Shown here one piece after another: positions 25,108 through 55,757 of a stretch of DNA of 64,000 bases. The notes beneath the pieces are model-generated. The model saw only the letters and a list, made by a program, of their open reading frames with translations. It was not told where the DNA came from and ran no database searches. Source of the DNA: an uncultured Thermoactinomycetaceae bacterium (GTDB taxonomy: Bacteria > Bacillota > Bacilli > Thermoactinomycetales > CALJVA01); contig CALJVA010000067.1 in assembly GCA_937975135.1 (NCBI GenBank), positions 17,792 to 81,791 of the forward strand, read 5' to 3'. The translations under genes and the position numbers were made by a program. Position 1 is the first letter of the stretch. Each line of letters begins with the position of its first letter.

Positions 25108-25772
25108 ATTGCGAAGAGGCTCTAGATATGATTCAACGAAATCTAGATGGCGATTTGTCGGATTGGGAAACCGTACTGCTTGAAAAACACCTTTCGGTCT
25201 GTTCGAAATGTGCAAAGGAAAAGCATGATTTGGAAGAACTTTCGAGTAGGTTATCTCGCTTACCACAATCCTTACCGCCGGTTAGTATCGTCGATCAGGT
25301 GTTGATGCAGATCGATCATAATCGTGAAAAACCTTCCCATAGGGGTTCCTTATGGTGGATCATAGGAAGTACGAGTGCAGCTGTAATAATAGGAGGGCTA
25401 CTTTTTTGGCATCTGGAAGGTAGTTCACCAAATGAACAAATGTTGACGACGGAAACAGAAAGCATATCATCGGAACAAATTATGAATAATCAACAAAACC
25501 AAGAGACGGTATTTGAACCTTCTGTACCGCTTTGGTCACCAGATGGACAATACCGTGCTCAAGTGGAAGAACGGCGGGTAGTCATCTATTCTCGGGAAGG
25601 TGAAGTTTATTTTCGTTCTTCGCAATGGGCAGAAGAAGGAGAGACAGAACTCTTCTGGACTGGTGAACAAAAACTCACTCTTCAGTTAAAATGGGAGGAG
25701 AAGCGGATCGAAGTTTGGCAGATTGATTTAAATAAAGAGCCACCCGAGGTGATGATCAAAGATGGCCCATAA
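25104..25772 (+). CDS. Anti-sigma factor (zf-HC2, single TM, extracytoplasmic domain)
   Basis: ATGA overlap with the sigma gene. N-terminal H-x3-C-x2-C motif (HLSVCSKCAKE) and TM segment WWIIGSTSAAVIIGGLLFW. Confidence 0.8.
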   Translation: MNCEEALDMIQRNLDGDLSDWETVLLEKHLSVCSKCAKEKHDLEELSSRLSRLPQSLPPVSIVDQVLMQIDHNREKPSHRGSLWWIIGSTSAAVIIGGLLFWHLEGSSPNEQMLTTETESISSEQIMNNQQNQETVFEPSVPLWSPDGQYRAQVEERRVVIYSREGEVYFRSSQWAEEGETELFWTGEQKLTLQLKWEEKRIEVWQIDLNKEPPEVMIKDGP

Positions 25773-26790
25773 ATTATCCCAGGAGATAGCACATAACAAG
25801 TTTGCCCCAGTCTATGTATTTTATGGGATAGAAGAGTATCGGATCAAAAGAGCGTGTCAGATCATCCGTGAACGACTTGTTCCTGAAGAAGAACGAGAGA
25901 TGAATGAAATACAAGTAAATCTTAGTGAGGTACCTTTGGATGTTTTGATTCAGGAGGCAGAAACACCTCCTTTCTTTGGTAATCGGCGACTGATTATTGG
26001 TCAAAATGCCTTGTTTTTGACAGGAACGAAAGAGAGAACAAAAGTAGAGCATAATATTGAGGAATTGCTTCGATACATTGCCAATCCCCTCGATTCTAGT
26101 GTCGTGATTCTAATTGCTCCAACAGAAAAACTGGATAAAAGGAAAAAGATTGTAAAAGAGCTAGAGAAACATGCCCGGATGGTTAATTTTGAGCCTTTGA
26201 ATGAAAAGGAATTGTCAATTTGGGTGAGAAAACAGATCGAAAAAGAAGGTGCCCAAATTCGGCCAGAAGCAGTGATCCGTCTTATAGAATTGATCGGAAA
26301 TGATTTATATACATTGCACAATGAGTGTAAAAAGCTGTCCACCTATGTAGGAAGGGGAGGAGTCGTTACGCCACAGATGATTGACCAACTTACCCCTCGT
26401 ACATTGGAACAGGATGTTTTTAAGCTTATTGATCAAGTGGCAAGGCGGAAGACGGATCAAGCATTGGCAGTTCTCTATGACTTATTGCAAAATCGGGAAG
26501 AGCCTATTCGAATTCTAGCACTTATCATTCGGCAATTTCGGATCTTACTGCAAGTTTATACCTTAACCAGCCAGGGGAAGAGTGAGCGGGAAATAGCTTC
26601 AATACTAGGACTTCATCCTTATCCGGTTAAACTTGCTGTTCGTCAATGTAGGGCTTTTTCGGAAAAGTCCTTACGAACCCTTTTACGTAAAGCTATTGAA
26701 GCGGATCAAGGAATAAAAACTGGGAGAATCGAAAAGAGATTCGCCTTAGAACATCTTCTATTACAAATCGGAACAAGATCGTCTACATAA
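25762..26790 (+). CDS. holA: DNA polymerase III delta subunit
   Basis: 342 aa. PVYVFYGIEEYRIKRA N-terminus. Sits where holA (yqeN) follows comEC in B. subtilis. Overlaps the anti-sigma gene by 11 nt. Confidence 0.85.
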   Translation: MAHKLSQEIAHNKFAPVYVFYGIEEYRIKRACQIIRERLVPEEEREMNEIQVNLSEVPLDVLIQEAETPPFFGNRRLIIGQNALFLTGTKERTKVEHNIEELLRYIANPLDSSVVILIAPTEKLDKRKKIVKELEKHARMVNFEPLNEKELSIWVRKQIEKEGAQIRPEAVIRLIELIGNDLYTLHNECKKLSTYVGRGGVVTPQMIDQLTPRTLEQDVFKLIDQVARRKTDQALAVLYDLLQNREEPIRILALIIRQFRILLQVYTLTSQGKSEREIASILGLHPYPVKLAVRQCRAFSEKSLRTLLRKAIEADQGIKTGRIEKRFALEHLLLQIGTRSST

Positions 26791-27106: not shown

Positions 27107-27757
27107 ATGTATCCAGTTGAGATTTTTGTAGTTCATTATCCAGACAGCCTATTATCAGGATTGCAGCTCGTGTTGGAACGCGATATTGAAATTGTAAAAA
27201 GAGGAATCCTCGCAAACCTGTCTACTGAGAAAGATACCTTTCTGTCTAAAGTATCTTGGAAATGTTTTGGAAAAGACATAAAAGAAGTTCAGCAGGCGAT
27301 TACTGAAAAGAAAAGCTCAACAAAGGTGATTTTGTACGCCGATTGTTTGCCAGATTACTGGTTTAGTTATCTCTTAAAAGGTGTCAATGCTGTGGTAGCT
27401 ATCAAAGATCATCAGGAGTTACCAATCGCCATACACCTTGTCTCTCTAGGTGGAATTTATCTCAGCAAGGAATATAAAAATTGTTTTCGTAAAGGGCTAT
27501 ACTTCGAAACTGGTTTTGAATTAGCTAAAAATTGTATAGGATTAACTGAAATGGAGATAAAAGTGATTCGGGAAATTGCACAGGACCGTTCAAATAAGGA
27601 AATTGCTGAAGTGCTCTATATTAGTGAGCGGACTGTAGAATATCATATTTCCTCTGCAATGCGGAAAATGGGAGTAAAGTCAAGGGTTGGATTAGTTGTT
27701 AATATACTAAAAATGAATTTGATAGATTTGAAGGAAATACAAAAATTAAACAGTTGA
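27107..27757 (+). CDS. Orphan LuxR/GerE-family regulator with degenerate receiver-like N-terminus
   Basis: C-terminal HTH LTEMEIKVIREIAQDRSNKEIAEVLYISERTVEYHISSAMRKMGVKSR. The N-terminus EIFVVHYPD lacks the acidic DD pocket of NarL-type receivers. No cognate kinase lies nearby. Confidence 0.8.
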   Translation: MYPVEIFVVHYPDSLLSGLQLVLERDIEIVKRGILANLSTEKDTFLSKVSWKCFGKDIKEVQQAITEKKSSTKVILYADCLPDYWFSYLLKGVNAVVAIKDHQELPIAIHLVSLGGIYLSKEYKNCFRKGLYFETGFELAKNCIGLTEMEIKVIREIAQDRSNKEIAEVLYISERTVEYHISSAMRKMGVKSRVGLVVNILKMNLIDLKEIQKLNS

Positions 27758-27896
27758 ATATGCTATCCAGTACTAAGAAACTAGTGTGTTCCGAGGAAAT
27801 GACTGTGGAAAACACGGAAGATCTAAATAGTTGTATGTGATATATATATAATTAATTCATTTGTCTTAAGATTATATCTATATATCTATCAGAACA

Positions 27897-27958
27897 ACGG
27901 AATATTCATATGATTTACTGACGACGGAATACTAGAACTTATTTAAATGAGTTATTAT
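27897..27958 (+). promoter_or_regulatory. Candidate activator-dependent promoter of the precursor genes (direct repeats ACGGAATA x2 + TATTAT -10)
   Basis: ACGGAATA at 27897-27904 and 27924-27931 (27 bp start to start). TATTAT at 27953-27958 has a poor -35 (TACTAG) that abuts the second repeat. Confidence 0.3.
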
Positions 27959-28033: not shown

Positions 28034-28186
28034 ATGGAACTGAAGGATCTGGAAATCACTGGGTTAGAAGTGATGGAGTTGAATGATGCGACAGCATTGC
28101 CAGAAACCGGAGCATCTTCTGGTTCAACTTCCTGCTCTGCTACCTCCACATGCGGTTCCTCCTCCTGCTGTGGATCTTGCTGGTAA
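28034..28186 (+). CDS. Thiopeptide/lactazole-type RiPP precursor peptide A1 (50 aa)
   Basis: Hand translation: MELKDLEITGLEVMELNDATALPETGA-SSGSTSCSATSTCGSSSCCGSCW*. RBS GGGGGTG 6 nt upstream. Absent from the ORF track because it is shorter than 60 aa. Confidence 0.85.
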   Translation: MELKDLEITGLEVMELNDATALPETGASSGSTSCSATSTCGSSSCCGSCW

Positions 28187-28288
28187 TGGGTGAGGGAATC
28201 TTTGTAATCATCAGTTTAGATTGGTGATTCCAGTAATAAAAGGATAACTTTATACTTCCCTCAATGCCTTTATGAAAGAGGGGATAGT

Positions 28289-28441
28289 ATGGAACTGAAA
28301 GATCTAGAAATCTCAGGTATCGAGATAATGGATCTAAAAGATGCTACAGCATTGCCAGAGACAGGTGCTTCTGCGGGATCGTCTGGCTGCTCTGCTTGCT
28401 CTACCTGTGGTTCTTGTTCTTGCTGTAGCTCTTGTTTCTAA
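28289..28441 (+). CDS. Thiopeptide/lactazole-type RiPP precursor peptide A2 (50 aa)
   Basis: MELKDLEISGIEIMDLKDATALPETGA-SAGSSGCSACSTCGSCSCCSSCF*. RBS GAGGGGA upstream. Confidence 0.85.
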   Translation: MELKDLEISGIEIMDLKDATALPETGASAGSSGCSACSTCGSCSCCSSCF

Positions 28442-28468
28442 GAATCTACTTTGAGAGGAGGTGAAACT

Positions 28469-28618
28469 ATGGAATTGAAAGAGTTGGAAATCACAGGTTT
28501 GGAAGTAATGGACTTGAATGATGCCACTGCATTGCCAGAAACCGGAGCATCTTCAGGCTCCTCTTCTTGCTCCGCTACATCTACTTGTGGTTCTTCTTCC
28601 TGCTGCGGCTCTTGCTAA
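28469..28618 (+). CDS. Thiopeptide/lactazole-type RiPP precursor peptide A3 (49 aa)
   Basis: MELKELEITGLEVMDLNDATALPETGA-SSGSSSCSATSTCGSSSCCGSC*. RBS AGGAGGTG 5 nt upstream. Confidence 0.85.
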   Translation: MELKELEITGLEVMDLNDATALPETGASSGSSSCSATSTCGSSSCCGSC

Positions 28619-28675
28619 GCTATGGAAGAGGATAATGATTGGGGCCTACAACAAAAGTTATTACTTTTACTTACC

Positions 28676-28715
28676 AATGATGTAATCGATGTGTTTTCAC
28701 ATCGGTTACATCATT
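28676..28715 (+). promoter_or_regulatory. 18-bp stem-loop between the precursor genes and the enzyme genes (attenuator or mRNA-stabilising hairpin)
   Basis: aatgatgtaatcgatgtg-tttt-cacatcggttacatcatt: 17 Watson-Crick pairs plus one G-U. Followed by tatgtattt, a weak U-tract. Confidence 0.5.
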
Positions 28716-28776
28716 TATGTATTTAAGCAATTTTTCACATAATCTAGATAATTAGTTAAAAGTAAGGAGGATTATA

Positions 28777-31509
28777 GTGGCGCAGGCAGGAGTTGCCCTT
28801 TCAACACCCTCAAGGAAACAAGTCATTGATTTGCCTCTATTTATGCTCCGTGTGGCGGGAATGCCTATTCATGAGCTTCTGCGAATGCGGATTCCGCTGA
28901 CGATGAAGTGTCTTAAAGAAATGACCGAAAATCAAAGGTGGATTGAGGCCAACACCCAATGGATTATAGAAAAAATTGAGCAGGAAGTTCCTAAACAGAA
29001 GGATGATAAAATACGTAATCAGCTAATTCAATATAAAAGGGATATTTTTAACAATCGCTTTCCTAAAAAACGCTCCGATCACTTTCACTCTGTTTTACCT
29101 TCTTCCCTACTTGAGCAGATGAAACAATGGGAAGAAGTTTGGCTTACCATTAAAAAATTGAAAGAGGAAGCAAGTCAACATTTTCCCCAAGAGCTTACTA
29201 AGAATCGGGAAGTACTACAGGAAATTATTCAGGATCCGAACTTATTGAGAGGCGTTGTTTTAACAAGCCGCGATTTGTACTACAAGGTGAAAAAATATAT
29301 TGAAACACCGATTCCCAAGCAAAAAGCGAGATTACGAAAAGTAGAGTATTCCCTGAGCAAGTATATTTCTCGTGTAGCAGCTAAAACCAGCCCTTTTAGC
29401 ACATTCACATCTGTAGGGATTGGAGAATGGAGCTCAGAGCATAAGGATGGAAAGCTTCATATTGCCTCTCTTCAGCATAAGAGCCATGTTCAGCTGAATT
29501 ATGCAAACCTTTTGCGGGTAGTGGATGGACTGGTTAAGCAACCGGCGGTAAGAAAACATCTGTCTTACAAAGTAAACCCAACACTGATTGTCGATGAGGG
29601 CAAAGTGAAGTATATTCGACGGTTGGATGATTCTCAAAGAAGAGCCCGCGTTTTCAAGACATTGGAAACACCTGTTTCTTTGAATTTAAATCCAGCGATT
29701 CAAGCAGTGTTTTCTATTCTTCAATCGGAAGATCAGGGTAAAATCGGTTTTATTGAGTTAGCAAAAAGGCTAACTGAACAATTGTCTACTGCCCCAGAAA
29801 ATGTAGAAAAGTTTCTACATCAATTGATTGACTTAGCGATCCTTGTTCCTGATCTTCATTTATATGAACAGACAAATGAGATTATTCCATCCATATTAGA
29901 ATTAATTAAGGAATGGCCGGAAGAAATTGCACAGCGAACTGGAAGTCGATTACAAGACATGGAAGACATTCTGGCCCAATATGGCTCAGCTTCAGTTGAG
30001 GAGCGTGCCGCTTATTTGCAGCGCGTTAAAGAAATTTATCGAGATATATGCACAGACCTTCAGATTGAAATTTCGGAGACCTCTCTGGGACTCTTAGTCT
30101 ATGAAGACGCAATTTTGCAGGAAAAATCATCCTTTTCACTAGATAATTGGAAAGAGTATCTTAATGATCTAGTGGCCTACCAGTCAATTGCCCCTATTTT
30201 TGATGTTAAATTCCGCATTCAATCTGCAATTGCCCAGAAGTTTATCGAAATGTATGGGGAGGATGGAGTGTGTGATAAACCAGGGCAGTTTCTAAGTACT
30301 GTCGTTCCAACATTAACAGAGTTTTATTCTGCCTTTTTACCTACTGCCTTGCCAAAGGATTTGGAGCTTAAGAATGAGTTGAAGCCAATTCGGATATTAA
30401 ACGAGTTACAAAGAGAAATGGGCGAGTTATTATTAGAACGATTTAAGAATGAACAGGAAGAAGTCCACCTTACTCATGAAGAATTGACTTCCTTTGCAGA
30501 GCGGATTCCAAAGGAGATTGCGAGACGGCCTCTGTCCCATGACTGCTTTGTGCAACTGGTTTCCCGTAGTGATGGTGAGGATCTACTCGTACTTAACCAG
30601 ATGTATTTGGGGAATACCACCTTTTTTACACGATTTCTTTCTTATTTTCCAGAGGAAGAGATCACCCAACTACTTCGAAATTATCTATCTACTCTCTATG
30701 AAAAAGAAGGGGTACTGGCAGAAATTTCGGGCGTATATGGTTTTAATGCCAACCTTCATCCTCCTTTGACGCCGTATGAGCTGTCACTTCCCATGTTATC
30801 ACCTACAAGAGATAAAGGAGAAAAAATTAATTGGGAAGACTTGGTGATGGTATACAACAAAGAAAAAGATCGTGTGATTCTTCGTCATCCTGAACTGGGT
30901 GAAGTGACAACACTATTTTTAGGTACCCTGATTCCCATGTTGATTCCCTTTGTGGTTAATTTTATGGCAACCAATTTTAGTAATGGACATTTTTCTAATT
31001 GGTTTCATTTGTTTGCAGAACAAAAATTAACAGAGGAAGAGAAGCAGCAAGTGCGAGTCTATCCTCGTATTTCTGTCGGACGGGTAGTTGTTGCACGTAA
31101 AAAGTGGATTTTTCCCCGCTCCCAACTGGTATATCGTGAAGCGAGGGATGATGAATTTTCCTACTTTACACGAGTGCATGAGTGGAGAAAGAAGTGGGAC
31201 TTACCAGATCGTCTCTTTTTCCGTTTGGCGGCTGAGCGTCAATCAGAGGAATCAACGTTCTCTTTGGATCCCCAAGCAACAGCCAATACAGAGGAGATCG
31301 ATTTTACGGACTTTAAACCCCAATACCTTGACTTCGAAAATCCTTTATTAGTACGTATGTTTGGAAAAATGATCGCAGACAATTCTTACTATGTCATTAT
31401 GGAAGAAATGTTGCCTGATATTGATAATCTGGCTTTATCGAGTGATGGTAGTTCTTATGTTTCAGAACTTTTAGTAGAACTTAGTCGACCAGGATTGAGG
31501 GAGGAATAG
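28777..31509 (+). CDS. LanB-type dehydratase, N-terminal glutamylation domain protein (Lant_dehydr_N)
   Basis: 910 aa. N-terminal FMLRVAGMPIHEL motif and size are typical of split class I lanthipeptide/thiopeptide dehydratases (TclK/LazB-like). GTG start after AAGGAGGA. Confidence 0.8.
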   Translation: MAQAGVALSTPSRKQVIDLPLFMLRVAGMPIHELLRMRIPLTMKCLKEMTENQRWIEANTQWIIEKIEQEVPKQKDDKIRNQLIQYKRDIFNNRFPKKRSDHFHSVLPSSLLEQMKQWEEVWLTIKKLKEEASQHFPQELTKNREVLQEIIQDPNLLRGVVLTSRDLYYKVKKYIETPIPKQKARLRKVEYSLSKYISRVAAKTSPFSTFTSVGIGEWSSEHKDGKLHIASLQHKSHVQLNYANLLRVVDGLVKQPAVRKHLSYKVNPTLIVDEGKVKYIRRLDDSQRRARVFKTLETPVSLNLNPAIQAVFSILQSEDQGKIGFIELAKRLTEQLSTAPENVEKFLHQLIDLAILVPDLHLYEQTNEIIPSILELIKEWPEEIAQRTGSRLQDMEDILAQYGSASVEERAAYLQRVKEIYRDICTDLQIEISETSLGLLVYEDAILQEKSSFSLDNWKEYLNDLVAYQSIAPIFDVKFRIQSAIAQKFIEMYGEDGVCDKPGQFLSTVVPTLTEFYSAFLPTALPKDLELKNELKPIRILNELQREMGELLLERFKNEQEEVHLTHEELTSFAERIPKEIARRPLSHDCFVQLVSRSDGEDLLVLNQMYLGNTTFFTRFLSYFPEEEITQLLRNYLSTLYEKEGVLAEISGVYGFNANLHPPLTPYELSLPMLSPTRDKGEKINWEDLVMVYNKEKDRVILRHPELGEVTTLFLGTLIPMLIPFVVNFMATNFSNGHFSNWFHLFAEQKLTEEEKQQVRVYPRISVGRVVVARKKWIFPRSQLVYREARDDEFSYFTRVHEWRKKWDLPDRLFFRLAAERQSEESTFSLDPQATANTEEIDFTDFKPQYLDFENPLLVRMFGKMIADNSYYVIMEEMLPDIDNLALSSDGSSYVSELLVELSRPGLREE

Positions 31510-31512
31510 TTT

Positions 31513-32652
31513 TTGTGGAAAGCGATTCATATTTATTATTACCAAGATGATAAAGAAGGTTTGTTACTGGATGGCATTCGTCCTGTAGTCAAAAGTTTGC
31601 GCGATACATACCAGGTTGAACGTATTTATCTAAAGAGACATTGGAAATTGGGTCCTCACATTATTTTATATGTCGATGCTTTGGAAGAAAGATTTGAAAA
31701 AGTACTTTATCCCTTTATTGAACAAGAAATTTACAAGTATCTTAAGGAACACCCATCGACACAGGTGATCGATCCCGTTGCTTATGTAAAGCAATCAGAA
31801 ACATTGGGTGCGTGGGAGCTGGAACCAGGCCCTTATGAACCGCTTGAACCAGACAATTCCATCAGTGTTAAGCCTGTTCGATCTCGAGCTGAATTGGTCA
31901 ATGGGGAAGAAGTAGCTCATCTCATTGAGAACTTTATGGTAGACAGTGTTGATCTTGTGTTTGACTGTTTGGATTCTACTCGAGGTCAAATTAATCAGCG
32001 GTATGGAAAACTGATTCAGATGATGGCTGTAATTGGCCAAATGTATCCCGTTGATGGGATTATCCGTGGTCATCTTTCTTATCGATCCCATGTTGAAGGG
32101 TATTTGCATTCTTTTGATAAAGAGGGAAAGATTCGACAAGTTTTTTTAGAAAATGAACGTGGAATGATGAAGACCGTCGATCATCTTGTACGGGATATTA
32201 TGGACCATACAAATGAGGATGGTACTTACGGAGGGGACGACCCCTTTTTACAGTCCTGGTCAGAAGTTCTTTCTAAATTGTATCAAGAAGCATTCCCTCT
32301 GGCTCAAGCAGGAAAAATTAACGCTGACACATCCCACTATAGAGAGATTGCCGCTAGAATAGGGGAACAAGCAAAAAAGCGTTGGGATCTAACACAGGAT
32401 CAAAGCGATTTTCACCGGCATCTTCAATCGGAAGAAGAAGGTTTGCGTGTTTTAAACAGTCCTGAATTTGCAACCTATCGTATCTTGGTAAATAATTTTT
32501 ATTCCTTGTTGCCTCTTTTGGGAATTAATCCAAATGTAAAGCACTTACTCTGTTTTCTGGTTGCCAATTCTGTAGAGAGAATTGCACAAGTAACATGGCA
32601 GGAACTTATGGGATATCAAAAGGGTGAGAATACTTATGAAACCAAAACTTAA
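31513..32652 (+). CDS. Thiopeptide-type bacteriocin biosynthesis domain protein (SpaB_C / Lant_dehydr_C): glutamate-elimination partner or pyridine synthase
   Basis: 379 aa. Family hallmark W..IHIYYY....LLLDGIRPVV...YLKRHWKLGPHIILYV. Confidence 0.75.
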   Translation: MWKAIHIYYYQDDKEGLLLDGIRPVVKSLRDTYQVERIYLKRHWKLGPHIILYVDALEERFEKVLYPFIEQEIYKYLKEHPSTQVIDPVAYVKQSETLGAWELEPGPYEPLEPDNSISVKPVRSRAELVNGEEVAHLIENFMVDSVDLVFDCLDSTRGQINQRYGKLIQMMAVIGQMYPVDGIIRGHLSYRSHVEGYLHSFDKEGKIRQVFLENERGMMKTVDHLVRDIMDHTNEDGTYGGDDPFLQSWSEVLSKLYQEAFPLAQAGKINADTSHYREIAARIGEQAKKRWDLTQDQSDFHRHLQSEEEGLRVLNSPEFATYRILVNNFYSLLPLLGINPNVKHLLCFLVANSVERIAQVTWQELMGYQKGENTYETKT

Positions 32653-34498
32653 ACAGACTGTTCACTTCGCACCAACAGAAGACGGGGTATATTTTAAGAC
32701 ATGGACCGGTGAATTTGCGATCAAAGGCAAAGGGTTGTATCAATGGATTGAACAGATGGTACCTTATTTAGATGGAAATAGAACCATTGAAGAGCTGGTG
32801 GAACCTTTATCTCCCGAACAAGAACAGTTTGTGAGGCATCTCATTAATCAGCTGGTACAGCGTGGTGTAATTAAAGATGCGACTGAGGAATCCCATGTAG
32901 TCTTATCGGAGCGGGAAAAAGAGCTTTATCAACAGACTATCCTGTACTTAGAAGAGTATGCTTCTGATGGACGAAAACAATTTCAACGGTTTCGGCACAG
33001 TCAATGGATGGTTTTTGGTTCTGGATTAAGTTACCGTTCCTGTGTTCGTTCAGTAATTTCCCTTGGAGTAAAAACACTTTACTTAGAAAAGACAGAAGAT
33101 ATCACCTTGATTCGTTGGATCGAAAAGTGGCAAAAGAAAGATCCTGAATTTAAAGTGACATGGATCTCCAGTGAGAAAGAAGAGGAAATTCTAGATACAG
33201 TTGTCGATAAGCAACTTGATCTAGCAATCTATGTGAGTGATCAGTATGATTCCGAGCGGATTTCTTCTTTGATCCAGTTCCTTGGAAAACATGAGATAGA
33301 TCTTCTGATCACCAGCAATATCGAAAACCGAGGGATTGTAGGTCCTATCATTACTAAAGAAGAACCAACAAGTTGGTACAGTCTACAGGATCGTCTGCAT
33401 CCAAAGAAGGAGGTTGCTGCTTCTCCTCCTCCTACTTTTTATCTCATGCTTGGCAATCTTGCTGCTTTGGAGGCATTTAAGTTTGTCAATGGATTGCCAG
33501 ATCAAGGGGTAGTGGATGGAGTTGTTATTTTGACGCCGGAGCAACTGGAGACGAAGCGTCATCCTGTTTTGTCATCTCCCTTCTTTAACAAGAAGGAGAG
33601 TGTGGATGAAGAAGAATGGCTACATCGTTTTCAGAAGAAATCAGAGGAAGAGGATCAAGAGGTATTCCTAGAACAAATTGCAGAGATCAGTGATCCACAG
33701 CTTGGAATCCTTCATCCAGTTCATCCTGGGGATCTCTGGCAGATTCCACTTCTTTTTATGGGAGCAACGCTTCATTTTCCTCGTTCTATGAATCGTGAAA
33801 TCAAGCAATTTGTAGCAGGGAAAGAAAATGTATCAGATGCAACGGAGCAAGTGATCCGAGATGCACTCACTTATTATGCTCAAACGATTCACGAATACGA
33901 AGGAGATGAAGAGCTTGCTGCTACGTCATATGTTTGGGAAAACGGACGAACTTTTGCTGAATGGTTGGGCAGAGGCGCCTTGAAGGCTTGGGCTCAGATG
34001 GTGAAACAGTCAGCACCAGCCAAGGAGCTGCCTTTGGAGATTCCCTCCTTAAAAATTGGTACCTATGTAAAAATGTTATCCCTTCGTTATGGGTGTAACA
34101 TCCGCTTAATTGAAGTGGATCTAGGTTTACCTTCTTCCCATTATGTACAAGTATTGGACAATGGAAACATATTGGCAGAAAGTGTGGGTCGTACTCAGGA
34201 TGAAGCGGTTGAACTCGCCTTGGTACAGGGAATCAGCCAAATGCAGTTGAAAAATCATCATCCGGAACTTTGTGATCCTTTGGAACCCTCTTGGTTTGCT
34301 AGATCACTTGAAGTAGGTGAGTGGGAAAATAAGCAACCCATACCTTCCTGGCAGGAATGGAAAAGGAATGCAGAAGAGTATTGGAAAGAAAAGGGATGGG
34401 AGCTGATTGTAAAACCCTGGTATCGTGACCCAGCTTGCTATGAAGCAGGTTTGTTGATTGGGCGGATCGGATTTAAAGAAGGGAGAGGGGTTGAATGA
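32636..34498 (+). CDS. TOMM/thiopeptide leader-peptide-binding (RRE / E1-like) cyclodehydratase partner protein
   Basis: The N-terminus KLKQTVHFAPTEDGVYFKTWTGEFAIKGKGLYQWIEQMVPYLDGNRTIEELV is typical of PqqD-like RRE N-termini of azoline-forming C proteins. The C-terminal GRTQDEAVELALVQGI weakly recalls a YcaO motif. Confidence 0.6.
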   Translation: MKPKLKQTVHFAPTEDGVYFKTWTGEFAIKGKGLYQWIEQMVPYLDGNRTIEELVEPLSPEQEQFVRHLINQLVQRGVIKDATEESHVVLSEREKELYQQTILYLEEYASDGRKQFQRFRHSQWMVFGSGLSYRSCVRSVISLGVKTLYLEKTEDITLIRWIEKWQKKDPEFKVTWISSEKEEEILDTVVDKQLDLAIYVSDQYDSERISSLIQFLGKHEIDLLITSNIENRGIVGPIITKEEPTSWYSLQDRLHPKKEVAASPPPTFYLMLGNLAALEAFKFVNGLPDQGVVDGVVILTPEQLETKRHPVLSSPFFNKKESVDEEEWLHRFQKKSEEEDQEVFLEQIAEISDPQLGILHPVHPGDLWQIPLLFMGATLHFPRSMNREIKQFVAGKENVSDATEQVIRDALTYYAQTIHEYEGDEELAATSYVWENGRTFAEWLGRGALKAWAQMVKQSAPAKELPLEIPSLKIGTYVKMLSLRYGCNIRLIEVDLGLPSSHYVQVLDNGNILAESVGRTQDEAVELALVQGISQMQLKNHHPELCDPLEPSWFARSLEVGEWENKQPIPSWQEWKRNAEEYWKEKGWELIVKPWYRDPACYEAGLLIGRIGFKEGRGVE

Positions 34499-36462
34499 AG
34501 CGGCAGATTTGGGTAGTTGGAGAGGGAACCTTTGCTGACCAGGTATTGAAGCAAATCGAAGTAAATGCTTCACTAATCCAAAAATGTATCGCCGATTTAC
34601 ATGAAGCAAATGATCAACATCAACCAGATGTAATTCTAAGTTTGCTTGATTACCGTGGAATTGAAGAGGAGTTGGAGATCCAAAGAATTGCAGGTCGCTT
34701 GCAAGTACCCTACTTACGTGCTCACTTATATACGGATCGGGCCTATATTGGGCCTTGGGTAATGCCCGAGAAAGAAGGATGTATTCGCTGTGCAGAGTAT
34801 CGGATGAGGACGGCCCATCCACATCGTGACATGGAAGAGGGAATGGTGAAGGCACAAAAAAGTGTACGTTATCTAGAAGCAAAAAAGTGCTGGAGCGTTC
34901 CCTTTCTTTCCTATTGTAGTGTGTTGATTGAAGGAGAATTGCAACAGTGGATTTCTGGAGGGCCATTGCAATTGATTGAGCAGATGTATGTGGGTTACGA
35001 TCATTTACTCACCGGACAGCTTCATCGGTTTCAGCCGAATCCAGTCTGCCCCGAATGCAGTCCTCTTCCCGATGATACCCCCGAGCTTTGCCAGTTAAAT
35101 CTTGTTCCACGACGCAAACCATCTCCACGAACCTATCGCTTACCCAATCCGAATCTGTCCAGAGAAAATTTGCGTCGTCAATTTTATGACTGGCGGATGG
35201 GAATATTTCGTCATATCTACCGGGATATTTATTCAAGTTTGTTACCGATTTGTGGGTCGGAACTACCTTTGGATGATCGGATGATCGAACGTGGTTTTGG
35301 GCGGACGACAACATTTAATGATTCGGAAAAGACCGCAATGTTGGAAGCTCTAGAAAGGTATGCTGGTATGAAACCGCGGGGCAAACGGACCGTGGTTCGA
35401 GGTTCTTATCGGGAGCTAAAAGATCGGGCGATTCACCCCCCGTCATTGGGCCTTCATGATCCAAAACAAGCGAATGAGCCAGGGTATAATTATCGGCCCT
35501 ACGATGATGATACTCCCTTTAACTGGGTTTGGGCCTATTCCTGGAAAGAAAAAAAGCCCGTTTTGATTCCAGAACAAATGGTTTATTACCGCTCCACAGA
35601 AACGAAGGATCGCTTTGTTTATGAAACCTCTAATGGTTGTGCGATGGGAGGGTCCTTAGAAGAAGCAATCTTCTATGCATTGTTGGAAGTGATTGAGCGG
35701 GATGCTTTCTTGATTGCTTGGTATAATCGCTTGCCTTTGGTTCATTTGGATATTGAAGATGTGAAAGATCCCAATATTTTGTTGGTTAAAGATCGCGTTA
35801 CTGCGATGGGATATCAGCTCCACTTTTTCGATATGACCATGGATAGTAAGGTTCCAAGTATATGGGCTACTTTGATCAATCCCGCTGAAGATGCTGGAGT
35901 GAAAACCTATTCCGCCGCCGGAGCTCACCCTGATCCCGAAAAGGCACTAATGGGGGCAATGGTGGAAGTTGTTACCTCTGTACCAATTTATGAACAAACC
36001 ATGCCACAACAGCGGGATCGTGCAACAGAGATGGTAAAGGATCCAGGAAAAGTTCAATTGATGGAAGATCATGTATTGCTTTATTCCCATCCTGATACGC
36101 TGAGTCGGTTTGATTTTTTGTTTACAGAACAAAGTAAAACAAAAAAAATGCGGGAGGCATATCGGGACTGGTATGAAAAGACACCCCCAGAAGATTTGAC
36201 AGAAGAACTTACGGCTTTAGTTGAGCGAATCCTCCAGAATAACCATGATCTTCTAATTGTTGATGAAACCACTCCCGAACTACGAAAAGTAGGAATTTAT
36301 GCGGTAAAGGTTTTTGTTCAAGGAATGCTTACGATGTCCTTCGGTCATCAGTATCGCAGGATTATTCTTGACCGTGTACAACAAGCCCCCATTTTGGCTG
36401 GCTATCGTACACATCCGATCAAGGAAGAAGAGATCAATCTTCATCCTCACCCCTTTCCGTGA
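34495..36462 (+). CDS. YcaO-family cyclodehydratase (azoline synthase) with N-terminal E1-like/zinc-ribbon region
   Basis: 655 aa. YcaO motifs GFGRTTTFNDSEKTAMLEALERYAG and ETSNGCAMGGSLEEAIFYALLEVIERDAF. N-terminal CIRC...CPEC cysteine pairs. ATGA overlap with the upstream gene. Confidence 0.85.
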   Translation: MKRQIWVVGEGTFADQVLKQIEVNASLIQKCIADLHEANDQHQPDVILSLLDYRGIEEELEIQRIAGRLQVPYLRAHLYTDRAYIGPWVMPEKEGCIRCAEYRMRTAHPHRDMEEGMVKAQKSVRYLEAKKCWSVPFLSYCSVLIEGELQQWISGGPLQLIEQMYVGYDHLLTGQLHRFQPNPVCPECSPLPDDTPELCQLNLVPRRKPSPRTYRLPNPNLSRENLRRQFYDWRMGIFRHIYRDIYSSLLPICGSELPLDDRMIERGFGRTTTFNDSEKTAMLEALERYAGMKPRGKRTVVRGSYRELKDRAIHPPSLGLHDPKQANEPGYNYRPYDDDTPFNWVWAYSWKEKKPVLIPEQMVYYRSTETKDRFVYETSNGCAMGGSLEEAIFYALLEVIERDAFLIAWYNRLPLVHLDIEDVKDPNILLVKDRVTAMGYQLHFFDMTMDSKVPSIWATLINPAEDAGVKTYSAAGAHPDPEKALMGAMVEVVTSVPIYEQTMPQQRDRATEMVKDPGKVQLMEDHVLLYSHPDTLSRFDFLFTEQSKTKKMREAYRDWYEKTPPEDLTEELTALVERILQNNHDLLIVDETTPELRKVGIYAVKVFVQGMLTMSFGHQYRRIILDRVQQAPILAGYRTHPIKEEEINLHPHPFP

Positions 36463-36472
36463 GGTGGACTTA

Positions 36473-38020: not shown

Positions 38021-38047
38021 ATTAAGACGAGGTGACGGTTAACTCAT

Positions 38048-39946: not shown

Positions 39947-39948
39947 GA

Positions 39949-41070
39949 ATGATAAACAAAGAAACGCATGAGGAATGGTTGGATAAGGTATATCAATTGC
40001 GTCCTGGATATTTCTTTTCCTTTCCGAAGCCCCATGAGATGCAGATTCGCTTGAAAAGCTGGGGAGAGAGTCTGATTTGGCTGCGCGGTCGTGAAGGAGA
40101 GGACTGGGTATCTCACTTTTTCAGTGGGCTTGATGGCTTTCATCGGTTGAGGGAGCTTATTCAAAGAGTACCCAGAGAATATCATGAAAATGTATTTAAG
40201 ATACTCGCTGCTCTAAGACCTCGCTTTCTTATAGAATCAACCCTTAGCACTACAACTCGAATAGAAAAACGTTGGCAACAGATACTGGGAGTGAGAGCAA
40301 CAGCGATGGAGGAATATCAAAAAGCTTTAGCAGAAGCTCGCGTCTTAATCTTTGGAGCAGGTAAGTTAGGAAGTCGCTTTGCAACGAGCTTGGCCCAATG
40401 GAATCCACAGCAGCTTATGATTGTGGATGATGAAAAGATTACTCGAAATGATATTGAAGAAAGCCCTGCTTATGCTTTTTTTGAGGTAGGGGAGAACCGG
40501 GGAGAAGCTTTGGCCAAAACGATTAATCGGATGGCTGGGCGCACCTTAGCCGAAGGTGTGAACCTATCTTACGAAGACTTACAAGGTTTACGGGAGAGAA
40601 TCGAAAATTCAACACATGTTTTTGTGGCTATTGATCGCTATTCACCTGCTTTATATGATAAGGTTAATCATATCGCACTGGAGAAAAAAGTGCGTTGGTC
40701 TTTTCTGTTGGTAGATGGATGGGACTTATATGTTGGGCCTACTTTTTTTCCTGAACAATCGGGATGCTATCATTGTTTGGAACTGACCAAAAAGAGTGAT
40801 ATGCAAAAACCTGCTTCTTATGAAGCTTTCCGTGAAAGTTTGATCAGAGGAGAAAAAGCGCCTGATTTATGTAGTCCGATCGCTGCAGATTTGGCAGCGG
40901 GATTTTTGGCTGCGGATGCCATTCATCTCTTTGGGTTGATGCCCCAACGGATTGAAGCGGAAGCTAGTTTAACAATCGGTAGACAGCTCCATGTAAATTT
41001 ACGTACCTTTGACGCTTATTTTCATCCAATGATTAAGAAGCCTCGGTGTACAGTGTGTGGCACAGTCTAG
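39949..41070 (+). CDS. ThiF/E1-like protein with N-terminal RRE-like region (ocin-ThiF-like)
   Basis: Rossmann RVLIFGAGKLGSRFATSLAQ...MIVDDEKITRNDI, paired cysteines CYHC ... CTVC, and an N-terminal wHTH-like segment. Confidence 0.65.
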   Translation: MINKETHEEWLDKVYQLRPGYFFSFPKPHEMQIRLKSWGESLIWLRGREGEDWVSHFFSGLDGFHRLRELIQRVPREYHENVFKILAALRPRFLIESTLSTTTRIEKRWQQILGVRATAMEEYQKALAEARVLIFGAGKLGSRFATSLAQWNPQQLMIVDDEKITRNDIEESPAYAFFEVGENRGEALAKTINRMAGRTLAEGVNLSYEDLQGLRERIENSTHVFVAIDRYSPALYDKVNHIALEKKVRWSFLLVDGWDLYVGPTFFPEQSGCYHCLELTKKSDMQKPASYEAFRESLIRGEKAPDLCSPIAADLAAGFLAADAIHLFGLMPQRIEAEASLTIGRQLHVNLRTFDAYFHPMIKKPRCTVCGTV

Positions 41071-41087
41071 AAAGGGGAGAAGAGAAC

Positions 41088-41828
41088 ATGGCAAAGAAAA
41101 CTGTCATCGAAGTGGATGCAGTTGAAAAAGCTTACGGAACAACCAAAGCAGTGGATGGGATATCCTTTACAGTATCTCAGCAGGAGATTTTTGGTGTAAT
41201 TGGTGCCAATGGAGCAGGCAAGACAACCACATTGGAAATGATCATGGGCCTTAGGGTTCCAGATAAAGGAAATATCAAGGTGTTGGGGCATGATGTGGTC
41301 AAAAATACAGATCAAATCAAGCAAAAAATTGGTATTCAATTACAGCAAACATCGTTGTATGACCGCATTAAGGTTAAGGAAGCGCTAGAGTTGTTTGCTT
41401 CCTATTATGATAAAACAAGGGACCCACAAGAGATTATTCAGCTTCTGGGGTTAGAGCCCTATTTAAATAAATATGTAAAGAAGTTATCTGGTGGTTGGCA
41501 ACAGAGGACTGCATTGGCCCTTGCTTTAATCAATGATCCTGACATTATATTCCTAGATGAACCAACAACAGGACTCGATCCACAGGCACGGCGGGATTTG
41601 TGGGACGTGATTTTAAAGTTGCGTGATGAGGGGAAAACAATTGTTCTTTCGACACACTATATGGAAGAAGCACAACGCCATTGTGATCGAATCGCGGTAA
41701 TAAAAAAAGGACGGCTCGTCGATTGTGATACACCTGAAGGATTGATTCGCCGTCTACCAGAAGGCAAAGGGACAATGGATGATGTATACCTTCAACTAGC
41801 GGTGGAGCAGAAGGAGGAATCGGCATAA
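41088..41828 (+). CDS. ABC transporter ATP-binding protein
   Basis: Walker A GANGAGKTT, signature LSGGWQQR, Walker B IIFLDEPTTGLD. ATG 41088 follows GGGGAGAAGAG. Confidence 0.9.
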   Translation: MAKKTVIEVDAVEKAYGTTKAVDGISFTVSQQEIFGVIGANGAGKTTTLEMIMGLRVPDKGNIKVLGHDVVKNTDQIKQKIGIQLQQTSLYDRIKVKEALELFASYYDKTRDPQEIIQLLGLEPYLNKYVKKLSGGWQQRTALALALINDPDIIFLDEPTTGLDPQARRDLWDVILKLRDEGKTIVLSTHYMEEAQRHCDRIAVIKKGRLVDCDTPEGLIRRLPEGKGTMDDVYLQLAVEQKEESA

Positions 41829-41829
41829 G

Positions 41830-42570
41830 ATGCAGGCGTTATGGACACATACCAAAACTGAGATGAAGCTCTTTTTTCGTGAACCGATTGCGGTCTTTTT
41901 TACGCTGTTATTGCCGGGTGTTATGTTTGTTATTATGGGTAAAATTTTCGGTACGGAGACATATAGTATCGGGGACTATTTCGAAGTTTATATTCCCAAT
42001 ATGATAGGCATTGTTATTTTTGCTACCGGTTTTTTTGCAATTGGTCTCCAAATTGTCATTGATCGGGAAAAAGGAGTGTATAAAAGGCTAAAAGGAACTC
42101 CTCTTAATCCCATCTATGTGTTCACAGCACTGGTCGTGAAGGGATGTTTGGCCGTTTATTTAGGCGTGATTGAGATTTTAATTTTGGCCAAAGTTGTATT
42201 TGATGTGTCCTTGTCCTCTAGTCTTTTTCAGTTCTTTTTAGGTGTTACCCTATCCCTTCTCGCTTTTTTAGGTCTTGGTTTTTTGGTCGCCAGTATTTCG
42301 AAGCGAATGCAGACAGCCATGGCGATTGGCTTTATTGCCATGTATCCAATGATGTTTTTGTCAGGAGCTTGGTTTCCAATCGATAATTTTTCCCCTTTTT
42401 GGAAGTCGATGTCAAAAATAATTCCTTTAACTTATGCCAATGATATGATGCGTTTAGGATGGCAAGGGAAGCTGTATACTCAGGAAGGACTGGTTGCAAC
42501 CATAGTTCTTTTTGGGATCCTACTGGTGAGTGCTTTTATAGGTGTTCGTTTTTTCCGTTGGGATCCCTAA
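41830..42570 (+). CDS. ABC-2-type transporter permease
   Basis: 246 aa with six predicted TM segments. The start lies 1 nt after the ATPase stop, with an AGGAGG RBS. Confidence 0.85.
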   Translation: MQALWTHTKTEMKLFFREPIAVFFTLLLPGVMFVIMGKIFGTETYSIGDYFEVYIPNMIGIVIFATGFFAIGLQIVIDREKGVYKRLKGTPLNPIYVFTALVVKGCLAVYLGVIEILILAKVVFDVSLSSSLFQFFLGVTLSLLAFLGLGFLVASISKRMQTAMAIGFIAMYPMMFLSGAWFPIDNFSPFWKSMSKIIPLTYANDMMRLGWQGKLYTQEGLVATIVLFGILLVSAFIGVRFFRWDP

Positions 42571-43834: not shown

Positions 43835-45110
<1,276 letters not shown>

Positions 45111-47686: not shown

Positions 47687-47974
47687 CACTTTCACCTCCT
47701 GAGAAGGAATCAGCGTCCATTTATTAGGCGTCCATTGATTAAGAGAACACGGACAATTTTATCACGGAGAATAAGAAAATGCAAGAGAGAGAATAAAGGC
47801 TGTCGAGCATGGGTCATACTGAAATGACTGGAACTTTTTCTAAAAAGAAGATTCTTAGATTGGGATTTAGGGACATCCGATATTTCATTTTTCTAAGCAA
47901 ATGATTTAGGCAAAATAGCATGCTATTAGCATCTTTCTTACAAGGATTTAAGACGATAGTAGGAGTGGATTTTG

Positions 47975-49075: not shown

Positions 49076-49111
49076 CTGCTCTTAATATCTACTGTTTAAG
49101 CAATTGCTAGT

Positions 49112-50353: not shown

Positions 50354-50411
50354 AGAGTATAACTTTGTTCCAGAGAACCTTTATGCTAACGATTTATAAA
50401 TTTTATAGTAG

Positions 50412-50777: not shown

Positions 50778-50778
50778 T

Positions 50779-50815
50779 AAAAGCAGCCGATCCTTAAGGA
50801 TCGGCTGCTTTTATT
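50779..50815. terminator. Bidirectional rho-independent terminator
   Basis: aaaagcagccgatcc-ttaa-ggatcggctgctttt, flanked by A/T runs on both sides. Confidence 0.85.
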
Positions 50816-52360: not shown

Positions 52361-52638
52361 TTTTTTCCCTCTTTTCCGTGGAAGTTATCTTTATATTTTA
52401 TATCGTAAGCTTCCTGATCACACAAACCTTCCCTTTAGAGCATTGAGTAATGTATTTTATGTTTATCTTTTTGCTAAATAGAGATTTTGCATCCACATTT
52501 TTATTTCCCATAATGAATCAAAGGATGAATCACATTGTAATTCGCCCATCCTCTAGAGGGGCCTGTATCATAGGTGTGGCTTTTTTGATATAATAAAAAA
52601 ATGCAGTTTTCCCCGTCGAAAGCAGGAGGGAACTATAA

Positions 52639-55708: not shown

Positions 55709-55757
55709 GTAAACATTGACAATGACCTGTCCCTTTGGTACTTTTAAAGAAAGCATT

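What the first reader, a model, noticed from the sequence alone, without database searches (positions are those of the whole stretch)
28034..28618. Precursor paralogues differ mostly at synonymous sites, indicating old duplicates under purifying selection
I aligned A1 and A3 codon by codon by hand. This gives 22 synonymous codon differences (for example ctg/ttg, aag/aaa, ggg/ggt, tcc/tct, tgc/tgt). There are only 3 amino-acid changes (D5E, E15D, T32S), plus the extra C-terminal Trp in A1. The eight codons for ALPETGAS are identical at the nucleotide level in A1 and A3. So the copies are not a recent duplication or an assembly artefact. All three peptide sequences appear to be maintained, which suggests the cluster makes a small family of congeners. 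A2 has 7 Cys against 5 in A1 and A3, and the C-terminal residues differ (W, F or none).
Basis: seen in the sequence. Interest (0 to 1): 0.6.

Follow-up and report, generated by a model that had tools for sequence, protein, structure and literature searches.

The report
Three old thiopeptide precursor gene copies
Three tandem small genes encode slightly different precursors of a thiopeptide natural product; they are ancient duplicates kept almost unchanged at the protein level, which is a well-supported but fairly ordinary feature of a known kind of gene cluster.

Summary
A1 (28034-28186) and A3 (28469-28618) differ at 22 synonymous codons and 3 amino acids (D5E, E15D, T32S), and A1 has an extra C-terminal Trp. 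Formal estimates give dN/dS of about 0.02-0.03 for A1/A3 (LRT against neutrality p about 1e-10) and 0.07-0.11 for pairs with A2. Synonymous sites between the paralogues are nearly saturated.

All three genes match the curated thiopeptide-precursor models. They sit in front of a complete thiopeptide gene set with lactazole-like order, in an unnamed Thermoactinomycetaceae genome. A sister species (86% nt identity) keeps all three copies intact with the same W/F/none C-termini, and each copy groups with its orthologue. The duplications are therefore older than that species split. Staphylospora-type clusters carry four copies.

The precursors are 84-90% identical across genera, while the modifying enzymes are only 32-60% identical.

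Caveats:
- The run of eight identical codons looks like a short gene-conversion patch.
- A2 evolves faster, and its two extra Cys are not conserved.
- "Three congeners" is plausible but unproven. Paenibacillus tarimensis keeps two equally diverged copies with the same core, so dosage is a live rival.

Verdict: a new member of a known kind, of modest interest.

The parts
27107..27757 (+). LuxR/GerE-type regulator directly upstream of the precursor genes; also present upstream of the precursors in L001, L002, L003, L004 and L006
   Evidence: Pfam GerE 4e-18; synteny
28034..28186 (+). Precursor A1, 50 aa: leader M1-A27, predicted core S28-W50 (SSGSTSCSATSTCGSSSCCGSCW)
   Evidence: NF033400 60.9 bits (cutoff 30), TIGR03892 38.6 (cutoff 25), PF19409 59 bits; RBS GGGGGTG; orthologue in L006 with pS 0.32, pN 0.02
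28289..28441 (+). Precursor A2, 50 aa: core SAGSSGCSACSTCGSCSCCSSCF (7 Cys); the fastest-evolving copy
   Evidence: NF033400 58 bits, PF19409 62.5 bits; RBS GAGGGG; against its L006 orthologue pS 0.63, pN 0.13, omega 0.18, LRT p 5e-5
28469..28618 (+). Precursor A3, 49 aa: core SSGSSSCSATSTCGSSSCCGSC
   Evidence: NF033400 58.7 bits, PF19409 61 bits; RBS GAGGAGGTG; orthologue in L006 with pS 0.41, pN 0.02
28676..28715 (+). 18-bp stem-loop with a T-rich tail between A3 and the first enzyme gene; a likely attenuator or terminator that sets the precursor-to-enzyme transcript ratio (inferred)
   Evidence: a strong hairpin at the same position in L006, L003, L004, L009 and L013
28777..31509 (+). LanB-type glutamylation (dehydratase N-terminal) protein, LazB/TbtB-like
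   Evidence: PF04738 1e-47; PDB 6EC7 1e-43 over the full length
31513..32652 (+). Probable [4+2] pyridine synthase (LazC/TbtD-like)
   Evidence: NF045556 288.6 bits, below the equivalog cutoff of 325; PDB TbtD 5WA3 1e-35 over residues 2-357
32624..34498 (+). ocin-ThiF-like partner protein (LazD-like)
   Evidence: TIGR03693 1.5e-31, below cutoff
34495..36462 (+). YcaO cyclodehydratase with an N-terminal leader-peptide-binding domain
   Evidence: PF02624 5e-86; TIGR03604 359 bits; TIGR03882 90.5 bits
36314..38020 (+). SagB-type FMN dehydrogenase (azoline to azole). The listed TTG start is uncertain: the gene called in L001 is 515 aa, implying a later start that I did not map in the window.
   Evidence: TIGR03605 116.8 bits; gene call in L001
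38048..39019 (+). Lant_dehydr_C / thiopep_ocin protein, the probable glutamate-elimination partner of the dehydratase
   Evidence: PF14028 3e-48; TIGR03891 106.7 bits
39065..41070 (+). Second SagB-type dehydrogenase (39065-39946) and a ThiF-family protein (39949-41070); extra genes beyond the minimal laz set, role unknown
41046..42570 (+). ABC transporter ATPase and ABC-2 permease; export or immunity (inferred)
   Evidence: PF00005 and PF01061

Best explanation
A1, A2 and A3 are three functional, tandemly arranged structural genes for precursors of a lactazole-like thiopeptide. Each has its own ribosome-binding site.

Inferred pathway: the conserved leader (LEITGLEVM-L-DATALPETGA) is read by the leader-binding domain of the YcaO protein, by the LanB-type dehydratase and by the pyridine synthase. 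The Ser/Thr/Cys-rich core is converted to azoles and dehydroamino acids. It is then closed by a [4+2] reaction between Ser1 and the Ser of the conserved S-S/C-S-C motif (core positions 15-18), which releases the leader.

Shown: the copies arose by duplications that predate the split from the sister species, and they are so old that synonymous sites are essentially randomised. Since then both leader and core have been under strong purifying selection (omega about 0.03 for A1/A3 and about 0.1-0.2 for A2), with only a short gene-conversion patch between A1 and A3.

Inferred: one enzyme set processes all three substrates and yields up to three related products. These would differ at core position 5 (Thr or Ser), in the A2-specific residues and in the C-terminal residue (Trp, Phe or none).
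For: Identity of the genes:
- All three exceed the curated cutoffs of NF033400, TIGR03892 and PF19409.
- The downstream genes are a full thiopeptide set in the order dehydratase, pyridine synthase, ThiF-like, YcaO, dehydrogenase, elimination domain, ABC transporter.

Selection:
- NG86 and GY94 estimates with LRTs.
- Leader pN is 0.03 and core pN 0.02 for A1/A3, against pS 0.5-0.7.

Age:
- Orthologue pairs between the window and L006 have pS 0.32 (A1) and 0.41 (A3). This matches the enzymes (0.40-0.41), while the paralogues have 0.61-0.65.
- NJ bootstraps of 96/85/76% support the orthologous pairs; window paralogue pairs get 0%.
- Paralogue codon identity is only 0.7-0.9 SD above a random draw of synonymous codons under precursor codon usage (about 2 SD under genome usage). 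Orthologues A1 and A3 stand at 3.5-6 SD.

Maintenance:
- All three are intact in L001, L002 and L006/L007, with W/F/none C-termini conserved.
- Staphylospora marina and a related metagenome contig have four copies, including an STS-type and an SSS-type pair like A1/A3.
- Precursors are 84-90% identical to those clusters, the enzymes 32-60%, and TrpRS 68%.

Mechanistic analogy:
- The minimal lactazole scaffold needs Ser1 and Ser10-Ser11-Ser12-Cys13 (PMC7210931).
- That SSSC motif is conserved in more than 60 predicted lactazole-like precursors (10.1101/2020.05.12.092031).
- A1 and A3 carry SSSC at core positions 15-18.
Against: - There are no expression, mass-spectrometry or genetic data. Processing of any copy, and the ring topology, are inferred by analogy.
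- Each sequence is only about 150 nt, so estimates have wide errors, and several ML fits ran to saturation.
- Deep orthology between the window lineage and the Staphylospora group is unresolved. The nucleotide tree groups copies by lineage (92%), but GC content differs (43% against 58-60%), which confounds it.
- In the Staphylospora-type clusters the STS/SSS pair is closer within a genome than between genomes. Either gene conversion or independent duplication occurred there.
- A2's core is much less conserved: 7 of 23 residues differ from its orthologue.
- The pyridine-synthase match is below the NCBIfam equivalog cutoff.
Confidence: 0.8

Rival explanations
1. Dosage rather than diversity. The duplicates, at least A1 and A3, are kept because more gene copies give more precursor for one enzyme set. 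The few conservative differences (D/E, T/S, a terminal Trp) are functionally near-neutral, so the cluster does not make a selected family of congeners.
For: - Paenibacillus tarimensis has two tandem precursors with an identical core and leader from KDLNELEV onward, yet pS 0.59.
- The B. cereus group cluster has two identical copies.
- Thiocillin has four identical tclE-H copies, and identical precursors already yield eight congeners through variable modification (PMC5100339).
- All three A1/A3 replacements are conservative.
Against: - The Thr/Ser difference at core position 5 distinguishes an A1-type from an A3-type copy in all four lineages examined.
- C-terminal W, F and none are conserved between the window and the sister species.
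- A2 differs at 10-12 codons and would give a clearly different product.
Confidence: 0.3
2. A2 is a decaying or neo-functionalising copy. It is no longer a good substrate and is drifting, so only A1 and A3 are truly maintained.
For: - A2 against its L006 orthologue has pN 0.13, compared with 0.02 for A1 and A3, and a core pN/pS of 0.24.
- Its 7-Cys pattern is not conserved: L6_A2 has 5 Cys.
- The SSSC motif is changed to SCSC in the window and STSC in L006.
Against: - Omega is still 0.18, significantly below 1 (LRT p 5e-5).
- The ORF, RBS and leader motifs are intact in all four assemblies.
- Position 16 of the core remains an azole-forming residue (S, C or T).
- Its C-terminal CGSCSCCSSCF is identical to copy 1F of the metagenome cluster L004.
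Confidence: 0.07
3. The synonymous divergence is itself selected, or is retained because only diverged copies survive. Tandem identical repeats are lost by homologous recombination, so codon-scrambled copies are the stable state. High dS would then overstate age.
For: The same pattern of near-identical peptides with saturated synonymous sites occurs independently in P. tarimensis. In the window only a 26-nt identical patch is left between A1 and A3.
Against: - Near-identical copies persist in B. cereus group genomes (pS 0.03-0.08 in two assemblies).
- Orthologue and paralogue pS values fit a simple age ordering.
Confidence: 0.1
4. Recent duplication, assembly artefact, or chance ORFs.
For: None beyond the tandem arrangement.
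Against: - DNA identity is 74-82%.
- pS is near saturation.
- The same three genes occur in independent assemblies from other samples.
- All three match curated HMMs above their cutoffs.
Confidence: 0.01

Closest known systems
Lactazole (laz) cluster of Streptomyces lactacystinaeus and the predicted 'lactazole-like' thiopeptides
   Same: - The leader ends in ...ALPExGA followed by Ser1.
- Core positions G3, S4, S6 and C7 match the residues stated for LazA.
- The Ser-Ser-Ser-Cys motif is required for pyridine formation (PMC7210931; 10.1101/2020.05.12.092031).
- Gene order is dehydratase, pyridine synthase, ThiF-like, YcaO.
   Different: - There are three divergent precursor genes, whereas the laz cluster as described has one structural gene, lazA.
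- The core has 22-23 residues, with the SSSC motif at positions 15-18 rather than 10-13. By analogy the ring would be about 47-membered instead of 32 (inference).
- The elimination domain and the dehydrogenase are separate genes, not the LazF fusion.
- There are an extra SagB-type dehydrogenase, a ThiF protein and an ABC transporter.
- The host is a Firmicute.
Thiocillin tclE-H of Bacillus cereus ATCC 14579
   Same: A thiopeptide cluster with several tandem precursor genes ahead of one enzyme set (PMC5100339).
   Different: tclE-H are four identical copies. Here the copies differ in peptide sequence and are saturated at synonymous sites. The core family and ring type also differ.
NCBIfam NF033400 (thiazolyl_B) / Pfam PF19409 precursor family in other genomes (Staphylospora marina, Paenibacillus tarimensis, B. 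cereus group, Deinococcus arcticus)
   Same: The same leader and core motifs (LPETGASSG...CGSSSC). Copy number ranges from 1 to 4. The LuxR regulator and the hairpin after the last precursor recur.
   Different: Copy number and the C-terminal tails vary. In the B. cereus group the copies are nearly identical in DNA, and the window lies at the old, unconverted end of the range. I found no member with a characterised product.
Multi-precursor RiPP systems in general (for example prochlorosins; own knowledge)
   Same: One promiscuous enzyme set with several precursor genes that share a conserved leader.
   Different: In those systems the cores are hypervariable. Here the cores are among the most conserved sequences of the whole cluster.

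Membership tests
Thiopeptide precursor (NF033400 thiazolyl_B / TIGR03892 / PF19409) | Score above the curated cutoff of the family models | tested here: met
   All three score 58-61 bits against a cutoff of 30, 38.6-44.9 against 25, and 59-62.5 against 23.5
Thiopeptide precursor (NF033400 thiazolyl_B / TIGR03892 / PF19409) | Encoded next to thiopeptide maturation genes | tested here: met
   The dehydratase gene starts 159 nt after A3's stop, and the full enzyme set follows
Thiopeptide biosynthetic gene cluster | Split LanB-type dehydratase (glutamylation and elimination proteins) | tested here: met
   PF04738 at 28777-31509 and PF14028/TIGR03891 at 38048-39019; TbtB structure 6EC7 1e-43
Thiopeptide biosynthetic gene cluster | YcaO cyclodehydratase with a partner and an FMN dehydrogenase | tested here: met
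   TIGR03604 359 bits, TIGR03882 90.5, TIGR03605 116.8 and 111.1
Thiopeptide biosynthetic gene cluster | [4+2] pyridine synthase | tested here: inconclusive
   NF045556 scores 288.6 bits, below the equivalog cutoff of 325. There is a full-length match to the TbtD structure at 1e-35. Activity was not tested.
Thiopeptide biosynthetic gene cluster | Mature product with a central six-membered nitrogen heterocycle | not testable with these tools
   Needs MS/NMR of the product
Lactazole-like thiopeptides | Core begins with Ser and carries the Ser-Ser-Ser-Cys motif used for pyridine formation | tested here: met
   A1 and A3 have S1 and S15-S16-S17-C18. A2 has the variant S-C-S-C. The motif is defined.
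Lactazole-like thiopeptides | LazF-type fusion of the elimination domain and the dehydrogenase | tested here: not met
   The dehydrogenase (36314-38020) and the elimination domain (38048-39019) are separate ORFs in the opposite order
Lactazole-like thiopeptides | 32-membered macrocycle | not testable with these tools
   The spacing between Ser1 and the motif Ser is 16 residues rather than 11. By analogy only, this predicts a larger ring.
Identical multi-copy precursors (tclE-H type) | Copies encode the same peptide | tested here: not met
   A1/A3 differ at 3 residues plus the terminal Trp. A2 differs at 10-12 residues.

The most novel reading that the evidence does not exclude
The precursor family to which A1-A3 belong may make a thiopeptide scaffold unlike any characterised one.

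- It would be a hyper-modified core of 22-23 residues in which nearly every residue is Ser, Thr, Cys or Gly.
- By analogy with lactazole, the pyridine macrocycle would be about 47-membered.
- The sequence is held almost constant across bacterial phyla. The first 19 core residues of A3 are identical in Deinococcus arcticus, and the precursors are more conserved between genera than TrpRS or the modifying enzymes.
- That degree of constraint points to a conserved target or a physiological role rather than an arms-race antibiotic.
- The recurrent STS/SSS pair of copies might be a functionally paired set of products.
Probability: 0.15. Interest if true: 0.6.

Novelty: new member of a known kind. 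Interest (0 to 1): 0.3.

Why it matters
For the finding itself, it is a clean, quantified example of tandem RiPP precursor genes that are ancient, unconverted and under strong purifying selection. It tells anyone mining this cluster that all three genes should be treated as real substrates.

More broadly, it points to an uncharacterised and unusually conserved branch of the lactazole-like thiopeptides. The literature I read (a 2020 paper) describes that group as having no known function and only one characterised member. Here the core peptide is more conserved than the enzymes that modify it. That makes the group a reasonable target for product discovery, but it does not change current understanding of how such clusters work.

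Tried and rejected
1. The plasmid collection search with the precursor region found no match.
2. The genome-contig scan with a precursor alignment returned only two loci, a Pseudonocardiales MAG and Paenibacillus tarimensis. Taxonomy came instead from TrpRS homologues.
3. Full-text searches for the core and leader strings (LPETGAS, CGSSSCC, SSGSSSC and others) found nothing relevant, so I could not link the family to a characterised compound.
4. The Schwalen et al. 2018 thiopeptide survey (PMC6070396) is not held, so its classification could not be checked.
5. Pairwise ML for the most diverged pairs ran to infinite branch length because of saturation. Only the LRT and the NG86 proportions are usable there.
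6. A nucleotide tree to test whether the A1/A3 split predates the genera is confounded by the GC difference (43% against 58-60%). I left it unresolved.
7. I considered nucleotide-level constraint (an RNA or regulatory element) for the identical ALPETGAS codons and rejected it. The same codons differ at 4 nt between the L006 paralogues and at 4 of the 8 codons in A2. Both window copies also share derived ACC-GGA where A2 and all the L006 copies have ACA-GGT, which is the signature of a short conversion tract.
8. The promoter scan found no convincing sigma-70 site upstream of A1.

Full report
**What is at the coordinates**

Window 28034-28618 holds three small + strand ORFs, each preceded by a good Shine-Dalgarno sequence:
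- A1, 28034-28186: MELKDLEITGLEVMELNDATALPETGASSGSTSCSATSTCGSSSCCGSCW
- A2, 28289-28441: MELKDLEISGIEIMDLKDATALPETGASAGSSGCSACSTCGSCSCCSSCF
- A3, 28469-28618: MELKELEITGLEVMDLNDATALPETGASSGSSSCSATSTCGSSSCCGSC

The repeat finder sees them as three copies of a 153-nt unit with 74% and 82% identity to the first.

**Check of the observation**

For A1/A3 there are 24 identical codons, 22 synonymous differences and three replacements (D5E, E15D, T32S), plus Trp50 in A1 only. Codons 21-28 (ALPETGAS) are identical.

| Pair | Nei-Gojobori | GY94 pairwise ML |
|---|---|---|
| A1/A3 | pS 0.61, pN 0.027, dN/dS 0.02 | omega 0.031; LRT 42.2, p 8e-11 |
| A1/A2 | 18 synonymous, 12 replacement codons; dN/dS 0.11 | omega 0.074; p about 2e-6 |
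| A2/A3 | 18 synonymous, 10 replacement codons; dN/dS 0.09 | saturated fit; p about 2e-6 |

A Fisher test on the A1/A3 site counts gives p 8e-14. Both leader and core are constrained: for A1/A3 the leader has pN 0.033 against pS 0.51, and the core pN 0.021 against pS 0.70. The Cys counts of 7, 5 and 5 are right.

**What the genes are**

All three exceed the curated cutoffs of NCBIfam NF033400 (thiazolylpeptide-type bacteriocin), TIGR03892 and Pfam PF19409. A LuxR-type regulator lies upstream (27107-27757). Downstream, after an 18-bp hairpin (28676-28715), comes a complete thiopeptide maturation set:
- a LanB-type glutamylation protein, matching the TbtB structure 6EC7 at 1e-43
- a TbtD/PbtD-like pyridine synthase (5WA3 at 1e-35; NF045556 at 288.6 bits, below its equivalog cutoff of 325)
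- an ocin-ThiF-like protein
- a YcaO fused to a leader-binding domain
- a SagB-type dehydrogenase
- a Lant_dehydr_C elimination protein
- a second SagB-type dehydrogenase and a ThiF protein
- an ABC transporter

The leader end and the core match what is published for lactazole. Ser1 and the Ser10-Ser11-Ser12-Cys13 motif are the essential residues of LazA (PMC7210931), and that SSSC motif is conserved in more than 60 predicted lactazole-like precursors (10.1101/2020.05.12.092031). A1 and A3 carry SSSC at core positions 15-18. A2 has SCSC there.

By analogy (inference, not shown), the pyridine would form from Ser1 and Ser17. That gives a ring about 15 atoms larger than lactazole's 32-membered ring. 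The enzymes differ from the laz set because the elimination and dehydrogenase functions are separate genes.

**Organism and context**

The TrpRS encoded at 44037-45110 has a 100% match only to an unnamed protein. It is 74% identical to Planifilum and 68% to Staphylospora marina, so the window comes from an unnamed member of the Thermoactinomycetaceae.

The cluster lies downstream of holA, within a chromosomal stretch running comEC ... holA ... gpr-spoIIP-lepA-hemN-hrcA-grpE-dnaK-dnaJ. I know this arrangement from Bacillus, but I did not compare the order here.

**Orthologous clusters**

- Two Logan assemblies (L001, L002; 99.6-99.7% nt identity) carry all three genes intact. A2 and A3 peptides are unchanged, and A1 has D5Y.
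- A sister species (L006/L007; 86% nt identity, same holA-LuxR synteny) also has all three intact, with the same C-termini...GSCW...GSCF...GSC.
- Staphylospora marina (L003) and a related metagenome contig (L004/L005) have four precursors each. These include an STS-type and an SSS-type copy like A1 and A3, and a copy ending in CGSCSCCSSCF exactly like A2.
- More distant clusters have two copies (P. tarimensis L009; B. cereus group L010/L011) or one (L012; Deinococcus arcticus L013).

**Age of the duplications**

Between the window and L006, the neighbouring dehydratase and pyridine-synthase genes have pS 0.40 and 0.41. The orthologous precursor pairs have pS 0.32 (A1), 0.41 (A3) and 0.63 (A2). 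The paralogues within the window have 0.61-0.65.

In an NJ tree with codon-column bootstrapping, each window copy pairs with its L006 orthologue (96, 85 and 76%) and never with a paralogue (0%). The number of identical codons between the paralogues is only 0.7-0.9 SD above what a random draw of synonymous codons would give under precursor codon usage (about 2 SD under genome usage). Orthologues A1 and A3 stand at 3.5-6 SD.

All three copies therefore predate the species split, and their true age is beyond what synonymous sites can measure.

Whether the A1/A3 split also predates the divergence from the Staphylospora group is unresolved:
- The STS/SSS distinction recurs in all four lineages.
- However, the nucleotide tree groups copies by lineage. 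This could reflect the GC difference (43% against 58-60%), gene conversion, or independent duplication.

**Strength of constraint**

Against the Staphylospora-type clusters the precursors are 84-90% identical (A2 73-76%). The enzymes are 32-60% identical, and TrpRS is 68%. The precursor peptides are the most conserved genes of the cluster, the opposite of the usual hypervariable RiPP core.

The same core recurs across phyla. SSGSSSCSATSTCGSSSCC is identical in Deinococcus arcticus, and near-identical cores occur in proteobacterial and actinobacterial entries. An exhaustive search finds only 45 clusters at 50% identity.

1. The eight identical codons are only marginally unusual (P 0.043). They coincide with shared derived synonymous states: both window copies have ACC-GGA where A2 and all L006 copies have ACA-GGT. 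Four of the four differences between W_A1 and L6_A1 in codons 22-26 match W_A3, against two of nine elsewhere. This is the footprint of a short gene-conversion tract, not of nucleotide-level constraint.
2. Thr at core position 10 occurs in both A1 (ACC) and A3 (ACA), where every other A1/A3-type sequence has Ser. That is a parallel replacement in the two paralogues.
3. A2 is the fast copy. Against its orthologue it has omega 0.18 and a core pN/pS of 0.24, and its two extra Cys are absent from L6_A2. It is still significantly constrained (p 5e-5).
4. 'Congeners' is not the only reason to keep duplicates. The P. tarimensis copies encode the same core and yet have pS 0.59. The B. cereus group copies are identical with pS 0.03-0.08. 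The four identical tclE-H genes of thiocillin already give eight products (PMC5100339).

**Verdict**

Three distinct products are plausible but unproven.

The system is a new member of a known kind: a lactazole-like thiopeptide cluster with multiple precursors. I found no characterised product for this precursor subfamily in the searchable literature.

Interest is modest for the finding as stated.

Noticed in passing
window 28142-28144 (A1 codon 37, ACC) and 28577-28579 (A3 codon 37, ACA): Both A1 and A3 have Thr at core position 10, where the sister species and all Staphylospora-type A1/A3-like copies have Ser. The third codon bases differ, so this looks like a parallel Ser-to-Thr replacement in two paralogues rather than a simple conversion.
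   Followed up: partly
window 28094-28119 (A1) and 28529-28554 (A3): The 26-nt identical run over ALPETGAS carries shared derived synonymous states (ACC GGA against ACA GGT in A2 and in all L006 copies). It is probably a short gene-conversion patch between A1 and A3.
   Followed up: yes
L009 (Paenibacillus tarimensis CP166298), ORFs 5611-5910 and 5953-6147: Two tandem precursors with an identical core and a near-identical leader, but pS 0.59. This is the same saturated-synonymous pattern without any difference in product.
   Followed up: yes
L010 and L011 (B. cereus group), 4001-4174 and 4247-4420: Two identical 57-aa precursors of the same family with pS 0.03-0.08, meaning a recent duplication or ongoing conversion. 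This is the opposite end of the range from the window.
   Followed up: yes
L001, at the positions matching window 28900 and 38151: A conspecific Logan assembly has an 11-nt insertion that splits the dehydratase gene (46 + 868 aa) and a 1-nt deletion in the elimination-domain gene. The YcaO gene is also called in two pieces. These are either a degenerating cluster in that strain or assembly errors.
   Followed up: no
window 28676-28715; L006 4319-4483; L003 10340-10485; L004 9607-9754; L009 6148-6259; L013 4196-4301: A strong hairpin lies between the last precursor gene and the dehydratase gene in every cluster checked except the B. cereus group locus (L010) and L012. The stem sequences are unrelated, so its position is conserved but its sequence is not.
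   Followed up: partly
window 28206-28229: A 10-bp hairpin without a T-run lies in the 102-nt A1-A2 spacer. The A2-A3 spacer is only 27 nt. The hairpin could be a processing or partial termination site.
   Followed up: no
proteins P0012, P0013, P0016 and others: The core SSGSSSCSATSTCGSSSCC is identical in Deinococcus arcticus and in unnamed metagenome entries. LPETGASSG...CGSSSC recurs in Proteobacteria, Actinobacteria and Firmicutes. This is unusually strong core conservation for a RiPP.
   Followed up: partly
window 28034-39019 against L003 and L004: The precursors are 84-90% identical between genera, while the modifying enzymes are 32-60% identical and TrpRS is 68%. The substrates are more conserved than the enzymes.
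   Followed up: yes
window 39065-41070: A second SagB-type dehydrogenase and a ThiF-family protein follow the core enzyme set. They have no counterpart in the five-enzyme laz set and may add a further modification.
   Followed up: no
window 25762-26790 and 47972-62374; L003 1-9147: The cluster lies downstream of holA, in a stretch that continues with gpr-spoIIP-lepA-hemN-hrcA-grpE-dnaK-dnaJ. In Staphylospora marina the related cluster lies in a different neighbourhood (argG/argH, TerC, GSP_synth), so the cluster has moved.
   Followed up: partly
window 27839-27886 and 27936-27953: The AT-rich region upstream of A1 contains (TA)n runs and two inverted repeats (12-nt arms with a 24-nt gap; a 13-nt palindrome). 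These are possible binding sites for the adjacent LuxR-type regulator. The simple sigma-70 scan found no promoter there.
   Followed up: no
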